Source of the DNA: a virus
IMG/VR virus record: IMGVR_UViG_3300001200_000005
Coordinates: 1-34,872 of that record
Length of the DNA stretch: 34,872 bases
Reading direction: 5' to 3' (one strand)
The number at the start of each line of letters is the position of its first letter. Within the stretch, counting starts at the first letter, position 1. Made by a program: the position numbers and the translations under genes. The notes beneath the pieces are model-generated. The model was not told the DNA's origin and did not search any database. It saw only the letters and a program-made list of their open reading frames with translations. Positions 1,523 to 1,839 of the stretch are shown here, one piece after another.

Positions 1523-1634
1523 AGGTCAGTAGCTCAATTGGTAGAGCAATAGATTATCACTTTTCGCTGAAATGCAAAAAAAGTTCCTATAAAAGCGGAG
1601 CTATGTGTTGCAGGTTCGAGTCCTGTCTGACCTC
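1523..1634 (+). tRNA. tRNA-like gene with a ~39-nt insertion in the anticodon arm (isotype undetermined; possibly intron-containing, a pseudo-tRNA or a tRNA-scaffold RNA)
   Basis: Acceptor stem AGGTCAG (1523-1529)/CTGACCT (1627-1633) pairs 7/7. U8 is present, with D-arm GCTC-AATTGGTA-GAGC, 5-nt variable loop GTGTT and T-arm GCAGG-TTCGAGT-CCTGT. The anticodon stem ATAG (1549-1552)/CTAT (1601-1604) encloses 48 nt where about 9 are expected. No CCA is encoded. Confidence 0.7.
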
Positions 1635-1636
1635 CT

Positions 1637-1696
1637 AAACCGACAAAGAAAGTTCCTATATAAACTTTGGATGTTAAATACTTTCCGTTGGTTTTT
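1637..1696 (+). terminator. Structured hairpin element H2 with U-run (terminator-like)
   Basis: Outer stem AAACCGAC (1637-1644)/GTTGGTTT (1687-1694), AAA bulge, inner stem GAAAGT (1648-1653)/ACTTTC (1680-1685), single C bulge. The loop starts TCCTATA and a T5 run follows. Confidence 0.6.
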
Positions 1697-1701
1697 AAAC
1701 T

Positions 1702-1772
1702 AAAGACAAAAAGAGTTCCTATAACCCTTTCGAGGGATTGTATGCTAAACAAAACTACTCTTCGTCTTTTTT
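1702..1772 (+). terminator. Structured hairpin element H3 with U-run (terminator-like)
   Basis: Outer stem AAAGAC (1702-1707)/GTCTTT (1764-1769), AAA bulge, inner stem AAGAGT (1711-1716)/ACTCTT (1757-1762), C bulge. The loop starts TCCTATA and contains a CCCT-TTCG-AGGG mini-hairpin (1725-1736). A T-run follows. Confidence 0.6.
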
Positions 1773-1839
1773 AAAAAATAGGTAAAAGACGTTCCTATAA
1801 AGAAGTCTGTAAAACTAAAATACGTCTCACTTAATTTTT
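1773..1839 (+). promoter_or_regulatory. Structured hairpin element H4 (same architecture as H2 and H3)
   Basis: Outer stem AAAAAATAGGT (1773-1783)/ACTTAATTTTT (1829-1839) with 1 mismatch and 1 wobble, AAA bulge, inner stem AGACGT (1787-1792)/ACGTCT (1822-1827), C bulge (1828). The loop starts TCCTATA. Confidence 0.5.

What the first reader, a model, noticed from the sequence alone, without database searches (positions are those of the whole stretch)
1583..1839. Tandem array of three structured elements with one architecture, covarying stems and a conserved GTTCCTATA motif
Elements H2 (1637-1696), H3 (1702-1772) and H4 (1773-1839) follow one blueprint. In order, each has an outer stem, an unpaired AAA, a 6-bp inner stem ending in GT, a loop starting TCCTATA and ending A-rich, a 3' inner arm starting AC, a single unpaired C, and the outer stem again, usually with a T-run. 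The stem sequences differ but stay complementary: GAAAGT/ACTTTC, AAGAGT/ACTCTT and AGACGT/ACGTCT, with outer stems AAACCGAC/GTTGGTTT, AAAGAC/GTCTTT and AAAAAATAGGT/ACTTAATTTTT. Covarying stems together with conserved bulges and a conserved loop motif suggest a selected RNA (or ssDNA) structure rather than chance hairpins. The array sits between a tRNA-like gene and a 583-aa orphan gene. Possible roles are a multi-terminator gate read through by a motif-specific antiterminator, binding sites or a sponge for an RNA-binding protein, or a small palindromic mobile element that has multiplied. I know of no described family with this motif.
Basis: seen in the sequence. Interest (0 to 1): 0.8.

Follow-up and report, generated by a model that had tools for sequence, protein, structure and literature searches.

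The report
Y-RNA-like hairpin array with partner protein
The three hairpins, plus a fourth copy buried in the neighbouring tRNA-like gene, belong to a widespread and apparently undescribed family of structured RNAs that always accompanies one large uncharacterised protein in phages and bacteria, much as Y RNAs accompany the Ro60 protein.

Summary
GTTCCTATA occurs four times on the + strand (1583, 1652, 1715, 1791) and nowhere else in the window. H2, H3 and H4 fold as described.

A covariance model built only from other genomes finds exactly these three (55, 50 and 46.5 bits; next best 10.8). The fourth copy replaces the anticodon loop of a tRNA-shaped RNA (1523-1635), with its two strands in swapped order.

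The 583-aa gene is not an orphan. Its family has about 1,470 clusters at 50% identity and no Pfam, NCBIfam or PDB match. The module (outer stem, ANA bulge, N4-GU stem, UCCUAU loop, AC-N4 arm, bulged C) lies beside the gene on the same strand:
- in nearly all 86 close loci;
- within 700 nt upstream in 64 of 74 viral loci down to 31% protein identity.

In some relatives the loop holds a T-arm or a whole circularly permuted tRNA, which scores below threshold against Rfam YrlA. Chromosomal copies sit in RtcB RNA-repair islands; phage copies sit in tRNA clusters.

Most likely these are Y-RNA-like RNAs that carry a binding handle for the adjacent protein. Binding, transcription and biochemical function are untested.

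The parts
1490..1497 (+). Probable promoter -7 box (TATATTTG, matching the Bacteroidota TAnnTTTG type) that would drive the whole RNA array and the gene
   Evidence: Seen in the sequence. The box is conserved in related phage contigs L331 and L332, and similar TTTG boxes precede the arrays in other loci. The consensus is recalled from my own knowledge of Bacteroidota promoters. Transcription was not tested.
1501..1511 (+). Conserved leader box AAGTTCTTTAA at the presumed 5' end of the transcript
   Evidence: The same RGTTCWTTRA box follows the -7 box in L121, L122, L128, L131, L149, L198, L331 and L332. Its role is unknown.
1523..1635 (+). tRNA-shaped RNA ('H1'): intact acceptor, D and T arms, with the module in place of the anticodon loop
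   Evidence: Rfam tRNA scores 49.3 bits (gathering 29) over 1523-1634, with a 44-nt insertion at the anticodon loop. ARAGORN finds no tRNA. About 50 related loci have the same kind of chimera.
1559..1590 (+). Module copy 1, with its strands in swapped order: ACUUUU (1559-1564), bulged C (1565), GC-UGAAAU-GC hairpin (1566-1575), AAA (1576-1578), AAAAGU (1579-1584), UCCUAU (1585-1590)
   Evidence: Read from the sequence. The same strand order (AC arm, C, closed outer hairpin, ANA, N4GU, UCCUAU) recurs in the tRNA chimeras of related loci.
1637..1696 (+). H2: outer AAACCGAC/GUUGGUUU, AAA bulge (1645-1647), inner GAAAGU (1648-1653)/ACUUUC (1680-1685), loop UCCUAU + 20 nt, bulged C (1686)
   Evidence: RNAfold. 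The model built from other genomes scores 55 bits, E 2.5e-16.
1702..1772 (+). H3: outer AAAGAC/GUCUUU, AAA (1708-1710), inner AAGAGU (1711-1716)/ACUCUU (1757-1762), loop UCCUAU + 34 nt containing a CCCU-UUCG-AGGG hairpin, bulged C (1763)
   Evidence: RNAfold. Model score 46.5 bits, E 2.3e-13. The unit at this position in other genomes carries a T-arm-like hairpin plus a GNRA hairpin in the same place.
1773..1839 (+). H4: outer AAAAAAUAGGU/ACUUAAUUUUU, AAA (1784-1786), inner AGACGU (1787-1792)/ACGUCU (1822-1827), loop UCCUAU + 23 nt, bulged C (1828). It ends 9 nt before the start codon.
   Evidence: RNAfold. Model score 50 bits, E 1.5e-14. There are compensatory differences from relatives. In 79 related loci the last unit ends a median of 20 nt before the ATG.
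1849..3600 (+). Gene for the 583-aa partner protein: basic helical N-terminal part and a TerD-like beta-sandwich C-terminal part. The family is uncharacterised.
   Evidence: Homologue counts. No hit in Pfam, PHROGs, NCBIfam, PADLOC or PDB sequences. AlphaFold2 model pLDDT 78.7. Foldseek against PDB gives nothing significant. Foldseek against BFVD gives full-length matches to uncharacterised phage proteins and a domain match to TerD-like proteins. Calculated pI 9.1.

Best explanation
The region 1490-1839 is the promoter and RNA-coding leader of a small operon. It encodes four structured RNAs that share one module. The module is an outer helix, a 3-nt A-N-A bulge, a 6-bp helix ending G-C/U-A with a purine-rich 5' strand, the unpaired sequence UCCUAU, a variable insert, and a single bulged C on the return strand.

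I propose that this module is the binding handle for the 583-aa protein encoded 9 nt downstream, so that RNA and protein form a ribonucleoprotein. This would resemble the Ro60/Y-RNA particle in design but be unrelated to it in sequence.

In H2-H4 the handle is nearly all there is. In 'H1' the handle sits where the anticodon loop of a tRNA-shaped RNA would be. In relatives the variable insert is a T-arm or a complete circularly permuted tRNA, which is the layout of YrlA-type Y RNAs. The tRNA-like parts would then present the particle to, or mimic, tRNA-handling machinery. This fits the family's genomic company: RtcB, RlaP and PrfH repair islands in bacteria, and tRNA gene clusters in phages.

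Because the last unit lies just upstream of the start codon, binding there may also feed back on translation of the protein.

Shown: the structure, its covariation, its family, its strict linkage to the gene, and the tRNA-like and permuted variants. Inferred: transcription, direct binding by this protein, and any role in tRNA or RNA repair.
For: 1. RNA-level structure.
- Compensatory changes between orthologous arrays.
- Family-wide covariation: 0 of 500 shuffles reach the observed value, and slid registers collapse.
- The same two-strand module occurs in both strand orders (5' strand first in the hairpins; 3' strand first, with the outer helix closed, in the tRNA chimeras). This makes sense only for a folded single strand.

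2. Linkage to the gene.
- 295 modules lie in the 800 nt upstream (+ strand) of 91 homologous genes (70.8 kb). In the remaining 1.65 Mb only about 2 are convincing, both beside the gene in L124.
- 64 of 74 viral loci, with protein identity 31-74% and G+C 0.22-0.60, have at least one strict module within 700 nt upstream. Four more have modules on the same strand further away: just past the gene in three (L354, L363, L394) and about 1.5-1.7 kb upstream in one (L409). There are no minus-strand hits.
- Modules also accompany the gene in cyanophages S-CRM01 and S-CBWM1 at 31-35% identity, and in contigs with sigma-70-type promoters.

3. The window's units are members. The independent model gives 55, 50 and 46.5 bits against 10.8 for the next hit.

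4. Y-RNA parallel.
- Inserts that are circularly permuted tRNAs hit Rfam YrlA below threshold, and only over the tRNA-like core (model positions 17-92 of 114): L124 40.8 bits (E 1e-5), L325 33.9, L125 33.1.
- YrlA RNAs are described as circularly permuted tRNA mimics joined to a Ro60-binding stem and encoded in the rsr-yrlBA-rtcBA operon (PMC4201824; bioRxiv 10.1101/312249).
- Chromosomal neighbours of the gene are RtcB, RlaP, a PrfH-like RF-1 protein, RNase T, a WYL regulator and an AAA_13 protein. tRNA arrays adjoin the gene in bacteria and phages.

5. Weaker points.
- Modules within one locus tend to share the same variant of the last two loop bases: 82% against 68% after shuffling, with a maximum of 75% in 2,000 shuffles.
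- The protein is basic, pI 9.1.
- The last unit ends 13-22 nt from the ATG in 67 of 79 loci.
Against: - No experiment or transcript data. Transcription, processing and binding are all inferred.
A host factor or another locus protein could bind the module.
- The protein has no recognisable RNA-binding domain and no PDB structural neighbour.
- Three of the four units in this window lack any tRNA-like part, so the tRNA-mimic aspect rests on H1 and on relatives.
- My module scanner required pairing, so the 'percent paired' figures for the scanned sets are partly built in. The covariation, the strand and position bias and the independent-model hits are not.
- The within-locus sharing of loop variants could reflect local duplication rather than co-evolution with the protein.
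Confidence: 0.6

Rival explanations
1. The units are purely a cis-regulatory leader. They would be attenuator, terminator or translational-operator elements that control expression of the downstream gene (by its own product or another factor), and not stable RNAs with a function of their own.
For: - The units are usually upstream of the gene, on the same strand and in the same transcription unit.
- The last unit ends a median of 20 nt before the ATG, and 9 nt here.
- About half of the units are followed by T4 or longer runs in A+T-rich genomes.
- The last unit is nearly invariant in sequence across Bacteroidota.
Against: - Some loci have units downstream of the gene (L124/L352, L354, L363, L364, L394) or about 1.5 kb upstream (L409).
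- Complete tRNA bodies and permuted tRNA-like domains are not what a leader needs.
- T-runs fade with rising G+C, from 62% to 29% of units, and none of the hairpins passes a simple terminator scan.
- The tRNA chimera would be cut out by RNase P and RNase Z, which would separate the units. This step is an inference.
- This rival overlaps the main explanation, since autoregulation through the last unit may well co-exist with it.
Confidence: 0.2
2. The module is a processing or splicing signal. It would mark an intron in the tRNA and the junction of permuted tRNA genes. The 583-aa protein would cut at the module and RtcB would join the ends, giving mature tRNAs, as in archaeal BHB splicing and the permuted tRNA genes of Cyanidioschyzon.
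For: - The module sits exactly at the anticodon-loop position of tRNA bodies.
- Permuted tRNA-like genes are flanked by the module (L125, L124, L325, S-CRM01).
- RtcB, the tRNA-splicing ligase of archaea and animals, is a frequent neighbour.
Against: - The geometry is not bulge-helix-bulge. The central helix is 6 bp, with 3-nt and 1-nt bulges on its distal side and a 3-6 / 14-18-nt internal loop on its proximal side.
- The linker sequences that would form the anticodon loop after excision vary in length and sequence between orthologous Chryseobacterium chimeras. No consistent 7-nt loop or anticodon can be derived (my inspection).
- Most units, including H2-H4 here, enclose no tRNA part at all.
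- The phage in this window carries no RtcB (for the ORFs tested).
Confidence: 0.05
3. The 9-mer is a double-stranded DNA site: an operator, iteron, packaging site or FRT-like recombinase site. On this view the hairpins are incidental.
For: - GTTCCTATA is the core of the FLP/FRT half-site (literature hits are FRT primers).
- The window encodes an integrase (22260-23453) and a terminase.
- The repeats are spaced 63-76 bp apart.
Against: - All copies are direct and confined to one strand across more than 160 loci.
- The flanks covary as base pairs.
- The strand-swapped form within tRNA bodies has no meaning for duplex DNA.
- The integrase lies 20 kb away, and most loci are chromosomal repair islands without phage packaging genes.
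Confidence: 0.02
4. The units are copies of a small palindromic mobile element (MITE- or REP-like) that multiplied locally.
For: The units are tandem, similar hairpins with A/T-rich ends.
Against: - Units keep a conserved order across genera (GAAAGU unit, then AAGAGU/GGGAGU unit, then AGGAGU unit with an AUAGGU outer stem).
- They are found essentially only next to this gene.
- They differ by compensatory substitutions rather than being near-identical copies.
Confidence: 0.02

Closest known systems
Ro60 (Rsr) with Y RNAs, especially the tRNA-like YrlA/YrlB RNAs of the rsr-yrlBA-rtcBA operon (Chen et al. 2014, PMC4201824; Wang et al. 2018, bioRxiv 10.1101/312249)
   Same: - Small modular RNAs made of a bulged protein-binding stem plus, in many members, a tRNA-like domain laid out as a circularly permuted tRNA.
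- Several RNAs encoded in tandem beside the gene for a large protein, in the same operon as or next to RtcB.
- Also carried by phages.
- The permuted-tRNA inserts of relatives score against Rfam YrlA over the tRNA-like core.
   Different: - The binding module is different. YrlA's GNCGAAN0-1G motif is absent on the + strand of 1500-1850, and the ends of the YrlA model are not matched.
- The partner protein has no TROVE or vWA domain in Pfam and no structural match to Ro60.
- There are up to six or seven tandem units, many of them bare handles without a tRNA-like part.
- A version exists in which the handle replaces the anticodon loop of an otherwise normal tRNA body.
SPFH/Band-7 scaffold with a 'novel tRNA-like molecule' in RNA-repair systems (Burroughs & Aravind 2016, Nucleic Acids Res.). 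Recalled from memory; the paper could not be opened here.
   Same: The concept of a scaffold protein paired with a cognate tRNA-like non-coding RNA in RtcB/RlaP repair neighbourhoods.
   Different: The protein here has no Band-7 domain. I could not compare the RNAs.
CsrB/RsmZ-type RNAs that bind CsrA
   Same: Repeated hairpins that each show the same short motif in the loop, thought to bind several copies of one protein.
   Different: - Here the motif is embedded in a defined bulged two-helix module with covarying stems.
- The RNAs lie beside the gene of the presumed binder.
- tRNA-like domains occur.
- There is no evidence of competition with mRNA targets.
Archaeal/eukaryal tRNA introns with the bulge-helix-bulge motif, and the circularly permuted tRNA genes of Cyanidioschyzon merolae (reviewed in PMC3978253)
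   Same: An insertion at the anticodon loop, permuted order of tRNA halves flanked by a conserved structured junction, and RtcB nearby.
   Different: - No 3-4-3 bulge-helix-bulge geometry.
- No conserved anticodon loop would result from excision.
- Most units have no tRNA content.
Intrinsic terminators and protein-dependent antiterminator targets (for example ANTAR or RAT hairpins)
   Same: Tandem hairpins in a 5' leader, some followed by U-runs, with a conserved loop sequence.
   Different: - Large loops (20-45 nt) and bulged A/U-rich stems.
- U-runs are not conserved in G+C-richer relatives.
- No terminator call by the scan.
- Units also occur downstream of the gene.

Membership tests
GUUCCUAU-module RNA family (defined here from other genomes) | Matches a covariance model of the module (outer helix, ANA bulge, N4-GU helix, UCCUAU loop, AC-N4 arm, bulged C) built without the window's sequences | tested here: met
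   H2 55 bits, H4 50 bits, H3 46.5 bits (E 1e-13 to 1e-16). The next best hit in the window scores 10.8 bits.
GUUCCUAU-module RNA family (defined here from other genomes) | Lies on the coding strand, next to a homologue of the ~580-aa (about 575-715 aa) protein | tested here: met
   The units lie at 1559-1839 and the gene at 1849-3600, all on the + strand. The same arrangement holds in nearly all of 86 close loci and in 64 of 74 viral loci.
Rfam YrlA (RF02553), Y RNA-like | Score at or above the gathering threshold (69 bits) | tested here: not met
   No YrlA hit in window 1400-1900 even at E <= 10. Relatives with permuted-tRNA inserts reach only 33-41 bits, and only over model positions 17-92.
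Rfam YrlA (RF02553), Y RNA-like | Ro60-binding motif GNCGAAN0-1G in the terminal stem (PMC4201824) | tested here: not met
   No GNCGAA on the + strand between 1500 and 1850.
Rfam YrlA (RF02553), Y RNA-like | Encoded within a few kb of a TROVE-domain (Ro60/Rsr) protein | tested here: not met
   The adjacent 583-aa protein and 9 other ORFs flanking the array (10 ORFs tested against Pfam) have no TROVE hit in Pfam. Divergent family members have none either. Foldseek finds no Ro60-like structure. Not every ORF of the window was scanned.
tRNA (RF00005) | Cloverleaf scoring above the gathering threshold | tested here: met
   1523-1634 scores 49.3 bits against a threshold of 29.
tRNA (RF00005) | A 7-nt anticodon loop with a readable anticodon | tested here: not met
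   A 44-nt insertion stands in place of the loop. ARAGORN calls no tRNA. No consistent loop can be derived in orthologues. The RNA is therefore tRNA-shaped but probably not a decoding tRNA, which is an inference.
Intrinsic (rho-independent) terminator | Short G+C-rich hairpin with a 3-8-nt loop directly followed by a U-run | tested here: not met
   The scan of 1100-4000 calls no terminator in 1500-1850. Loops are 26-40 nt and stems are A/U-rich and bulged.
Bulge-helix-bulge tRNA intron | Two 3-nt bulges on opposite strands separated by a 4-bp helix at the exon-intron junctions | tested here: not met
   By inspection, the central helix is 6 bp, the distal bulges are 3 nt and 1 nt, and the proximal loop is strongly asymmetric.
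Ro60-like ribonucleoprotein (functional class) | Direct, specific binding of the RNA stem by the adjacent protein | not testable with these tools
   This needs EMSA, RIP or a co-structure. Only genomic linkage is shown here.

The most novel reading that the evidence does not exclude
The tRNA-shaped members are anticodon-less tRNA decoys or sensors. Their anticodon loop has been replaced by a handle for the ~580-aa protein. The resulting particle would be evolutionarily unrelated to Ro60/Y RNA. It would be carried by many phages inside their tRNA clusters and by bacteria inside RtcB repair islands. Its role would be to detect, absorb or repair damage by anticodon nucleases and other tRNA-targeting defence or toxin systems. 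This would be a new, widespread class of RNA-protein counter-defence and repair machine.
Probability: 0.2. Interest if true: 0.9.

Novelty: new variant of a known kind. Interest (0 to 1): 0.8.

Why it matters
Neither the RNA nor the protein has a name in Rfam, Pfam, NCBIfam, PHROGs or PADLOC. I found no paper describing them in the searchable library. Yet the pair is very common:
- about 1,470 protein clusters at 50% identity;
- at least 185 viral contigs;
- Bacteroidota chromosomes, cyanophages, and structural relatives in Campylobacter and Lactobacillus phages.

The pair is conserved down to about 30% protein identity. It would be a second, independent example of the Ro60/Y-RNA design: a large protein plus tandem RNAs that combine a protein handle with a tRNA mimic. 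It is wired to tRNA gene clusters and RtcB repair loci.

This gives a concrete and easily tested handle (a 50-60-nt hairpin and one protein) on two open questions. One is what tRNA-like Y RNAs do in bacteria. The other is why phages surround their tRNA clusters with conserved unknown genes.

There is also a practical gain. Genome annotation currently misses these RNAs and sometimes places spurious ORFs over them, for example S-CRM01 g173c and the window's minus-strand ORF 1534-1752.

Tried and rejected
Searches that gave nothing useful:
- Collection-wide DNA pattern scans. ATAGGTAAAWGGWGTTCCTAT found nothing.
- blastn of the region against phage records gave only a 45-nt chance hit.
- Rfam at E <= 10 gave nothing for the hairpins.
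- The protein has no hit in Pfam, PHROGs, NCBIfam, PADLOC or PDB sequences.
- Two AlphaFold2 models (pLDDT 69 and 79) searched against PDB by Foldseek gave no significant neighbour and no Ro60. BFVD gave only uncharacterised phage proteins and a TerD-like domain match.
- Assigning an amino-acid identity to the tRNA chimera by comparison with 388 tRNAs from related loci was ambiguous (Arg-CCG, Met, Asn or Lys, depending on the locus). I dropped an early idea that it is a tRNA-Lys mimic.
- Literature searches (permuted tRNA, Y RNA, YrlA, RtcB, RlaP, HopJ, and the motif itself) found no description. Burroughs & Aravind 2016, Green et al. 1998 and Sim et al. 2020 could not be opened, so prior description cannot be fully excluded.

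Ideas considered and rejected:
- Integrase arm sites or attP: the integrase is 20 kb away.
- Terminase pac or cos sites, FRT-like sites, a CRISPR array, a K-turn, a T-loop, or a BHB intron: the geometry or strand data do not fit.
- A splicing model: no consistent anticodon loop results.
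Full report
**1. What is in the window**

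The window is a complete-looking temperate siphovirus-type genome. It has a large terminase (30292-32013), portal (5049-6248), head protease, major head protein, tape measure and an integrase (22260-23453). The finding lies in a cassette between the terminase and portal blocks.

A TATATTTG box at 1490-1497 matches the Bacteroidota -7 promoter type. That consensus comes from my own knowledge. The box is followed by:
- a tRNA-like gene;
- three hairpins;
- nine bases later, the start of a 583-codon ORF (1849-3600).

**2.

GTTCCTATA occurs four times, all on the + strand, at 1583, 1652, 1715 and 1791. There is no other exact copy in 34.9 kb on either strand. The repeat extends to 20 nt (CAAARRANGTTCCTATAA) with spacings of 69, 63 and 76 nt.

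| Element | Energy (kcal/mol) | z-score |
|---|---|---|
| H2 (1637-1696) | -13.4 | -2.5 |
| H3 (1702-1772) | -14.2 | -2.15 |
| H4 (1773-1839) | -8.3 | -1.3 |
| Leader 1505-1850 | -72.4 | -2.7 |

Taken alone these energies are unremarkable for A+T-rich sequence.

Rfam confirms the neighbouring tRNA (1523-1634, 49.3 bits) but shows a 44-nt insertion where the anticodon loop should be. ARAGORN rejects it. The first GTTCCTATA lies inside that insertion.

**3. The '583-aa orphan' is a very large family**

A word-indexed search returned 1,984 homologues. The best 120 are 69-100% identical and come from Chryseobacterium, Aquimarina, Kordia, Algibacter, Winogradskyella, Tenacibaculum and others, mostly on chromosomal contigs. 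An exhaustive profile search found 1,470 clusters at 50% identity, 1,018 of them with E <= 1e-30.

No member hits Pfam, NCBIfam, PHROGs, PADLOC or any PDB sequence.

An AlphaFold2 model built on a diversified alignment (pLDDT 78.7) shows a helical N-terminal two-thirds and a beta-sandwich C-terminal part.
- Foldseek finds nothing significant in the PDB, and in particular no Ro60.
- In BFVD it matches full-length uncharacterised proteins of Campylobacter virus IBB35 (E 3e-17), a siphovirus 'tellurium resistant like protein', and Lactobacillus phage LpeD.
- The beta-sandwich alone matches TerD-like proteins (E 3e-3, TM 0.45-0.51).

The protein is basic, with pI 9.1.

**4. The RNA module travels with the gene**

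I fetched 86 loci encoding close homologues. In essentially every locus with upstream sequence, 1-6 copies of TTCCTAT lie within about 450 nt upstream on the coding strand.

Reading them defines one module:

outer 5' strand - A-N-A - N4-GU - UCCUAU - variable insert - (A)UU - AC-N4 - C - outer 3' strand

- The G-C and U-A pairs that close the inner helix, the UCCU, and the bulged C are nearly invariant.
- The 5' strand of the inner helix is purine-rich and the 3' strand pyrimidine-rich.
- The four variable pairs covary, for example GAAAGU/ACUUUC, AAGAGU/ACUCUU, GGGAGU/ACUCCC, AGGAGU/ACUCCU, AGGUGU/ACACCU, AAACGU/ACGUUU, UGGGGU/ACCCCC and CAAUGU/ACAUUG.

A rule-based scan found 295 modules in the 800 nt upstream of 91 genes (70.8 kb). 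In the other 1.65 Mb it found about two convincing ones, both just past the gene in L124.

With a diversified protein alignment I fetched 79 viral loci, of at least 185 that encode relatives, down to 31% identity and spanning G+C 0.22-0.60. Results:
- 64 of 74 usable loci have at least one strict module within 700 nt upstream.
- Four more have them on the same strand further away: three just past the gene and one about 1.5-1.7 kb upstream.
- None of the 74 has a hit on the opposite strand.

Other relatives:
- Homologues at 27-34% identity in contigs with NinG, terminase and CHAP genes and a sigma-70-type promoter still carry modules.
- Cyanophage S-CRM01 has five modules upstream of g174, and S-CBWM1 has one upstream of gp22. 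In these the last loop bases vary (UCCUGU, UCCUUU, UCCUUG).

**5. Covariation statistics and independent membership**

On 64 excised 44-nt cores (I removed the variable insert by hand), the named structure gives:
- 88% paired cells against 70% after shuffling;
- 220 cells changed on both sides against 88;
- a covariation score of 0.62 against 0.28, with 0 of 500 shuffles as high;
- 40-51% pairing when the 3' partners are slid by 1-3 columns.

A MAFFT alignment of 63 natural units from other genomes gives 93% against 70%, 224 against 72, and 0.75 against 0.26.

There is a caveat. The units were collected by a rule that demanded inner-stem pairing and three outer pairs, so 'percent paired' is partly built in. 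The diversity of pair types is not built in, nor is the pairing of the outer positions that the rule did not demand.

Two tests are free of that bias:
- Four related phage contigs (77-91% protein identity) show compensatory differences in each of H2, H3 and H4.
- Model R1, built from those 63 foreign units, scores H2, H4 and H3 at 55, 50 and 46.5 bits. Everything else in the window scores 10.8 bits or less.

**6. Swapped strand order and tRNA-like content**

In the window's tRNA, and in about 50 chimeras in other loci, the order is:

anticodon-stem 5' strand - (A)UU - AC-N4 - C - short closed hairpin - ANA - N4-GU - UCCUAU - 8-14 nt - anticodon-stem 3' strand

This is the same two-strand module entered from the other side. 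The outer helix is closed by a loop, and the 'insert' side continues into the tRNA body.

Conversely, in hairpin-form units the insert can be any of the following:
- short, as in H2 and H4;
- a simple hairpin, as in H3;
- a T-arm-like hairpin (CUGG-UUCGAUU-CCAG) plus a GNRA hairpin, as in Aquimarina, Kordia, Algibacter and Tenacibaculum;
- a whole tRNA in permuted order, as in L125, L124, L325 and S-CRM01. The order is anticodon-stem 3' strand, variable loop, T arm, acceptor 3' strand, closing loop, acceptor 5' strand, D arm, anticodon-stem 5' strand.

That last layout is exactly that of YrlA-type Y RNAs, which are described as circularly permuted tRNA mimics attached to a Ro60-binding stem. 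Rfam's YrlA model hits these inserts below threshold, and only over its tRNA-like core. The scores are L124 40.8 bits (E 1e-5, model positions 17-92 of 114), L325 33.9 and L125 33.1. The Ro60-binding ends are not matched. YrlA's GNCGAA motif is absent from the + strand of 1500-1850.

**7. Genomic company**

In Chryseobacterium and relatives the array and gene lie among the following:
- a divergent WYL/WCX regulator;
- HopJ;
- RtcB;
- RlaP;
- an R2K ATP-grasp protein;
- an AAA_13 protein (PADLOC candidate system PDC-S06);
- a PrfH-like RF-1 protein;
- RNase T.

tRNA arrays of 4-18 genes often follow. In the two cyanophages the gene sits in the middle of the phage tRNA cluster. This is the setting in which Ro60/Y RNA and other scaffold-plus-RNA pairs have been discussed. 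The Burroughs & Aravind 2016 paper is recalled from memory only.

**8. Interpretation**

The data show a selected RNA fold that is strictly linked to one protein family across very wide divergence.

The simplest reading is that the module is that protein's binding site, and that RNA and protein form a particle analogous to Ro60/Y RNA. The tRNA-like parts would be the 'effector' end. I rate this reading at about 0.6. In more detail:
- The claim that these are structured RNAs of this family is much firmer, at about 0.9.
- The specific biochemical role (repair, tRNA surveillance, decoy) is open.

Two further observations bear on the model:
- The last unit ends 13-22 nt before the ATG in 67 of 79 loci, and 9 nt before it here. 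Autoregulation through that unit is therefore plausible and compatible with the main model.
- Modules in one locus tend to share the same loop variant, 82% against 68% after shuffling. This is weakly consistent with one locus-encoded reader but also with local duplication.

**9. Rivals**

- Terminator or antiterminator gate. No hairpin passes a simple terminator scan. T-runs fall from 62% to 29% of units as G+C rises. Units also occur downstream of the gene.
- Splicing or permuted-tRNA processing. The geometry is not bulge-helix-bulge. The would-be anticodon-loop linkers are not conserved among orthologues. Most units contain no tRNA part.
- Duplex DNA sites, including the coincidence with the FRT half-site, and mobile palindromes. 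Both are contradicted by strand specificity, covariation, the swapped strand order, the conserved unit order and the restriction to this gene.

**10. Novelty and limits**

I found no Rfam family, no protein family and no paper for this pair. However, three relevant papers could not be opened.

I file it as a new variant of a known kind, namely a scaffold protein with cognate tRNA-like or bulged-stem RNAs, like Ro60/Y RNA. Its handle is different and its protein is apparently unrelated.

Nothing here shows transcription, processing or binding. Those are the first experiments to do.

Noticed in passing
L126, L127, L181, L185, L188, L192, L194 (about 120-200 nt upstream of the first unit): A conserved palindrome TACGCAAA-N3-ATTGCGYA, followed by a TTTG -7 box, precedes the RNA array in chromosomal loci. 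It lies next to a divergently transcribed WYL/WCX-domain regulator and is probably that regulator's operator. It is absent from the phage window, which has its own promoter.
   Followed up: partly
window 1501-1511; also L121, L122, L128, L131, L149, L198, L331, L332: A conserved box AAGTTCTTTRA lies just after the -7 box, at the presumed transcript start. It resembles a degenerate GTTCCTATA. Its role is unknown.
   Followed up: no
window 1779-1784 (AUAGGU) and 1794-1798 (CCUAU): The outer 5' strand of the last unit contains AUAGG, the exact complement of the loop's CCUAU. It is sequence-invariant across Bacteroidota, whereas the other outer stems covary. This could be an alternative pairing or switch.
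   Followed up: partly
L131 2626-3105: A GOLLD-like RNA (Rfam RF02032, 136.9 bits, just under the gathering score of 150) lies immediately upstream of the module array in a Winogradskyella chromosome.
   Followed up: no
L327 3288-3434 (S-CRM01 g173c, minus strand); window ORF 1534-1752 (minus strand): Hypothetical ORFs on the opposite strand lie directly over the RNA modules: an annotated CDS in S-CRM01 and a mechanical ORF call in the window. Both are probably spurious.
   Followed up: partly
L327 (S-CRM01 129-138 kb) and L328 (S-CBWM1 12.7-20.5 kb): The protein's homologue sits inside the tRNA gene clusters of two cyanophages. S-CBWM1 also has two features annotated 'tRNA-pseudo' just downstream (L328 5180-5356), which I did not examine for modules.
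   Followed up: partly
L132 8471-9745 and equivalent genes in other Chryseobacterium loci: The neighbouring AAA_13 ATPase matches the PADLOC candidate defence system PDC-S06 (282 bits). The chromosomal islands may therefore combine defence and RNA-repair genes.
   Followed up: no
window 1-34872: The window equals the full length of the only contig that carries this exact protein (34,872 nt). It looks like a complete temperate siphovirus genome, and the RNA-protein cassette is inserted between the terminase and portal modules.
   Followed up: partly
L329 and L330 (contigs of P0004 and P0006): Two close relatives have the three hairpins but lack the tRNA chimera. The tRNA-shaped member is therefore dispensable or exchangeable within this phage group.
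   Followed up: partly
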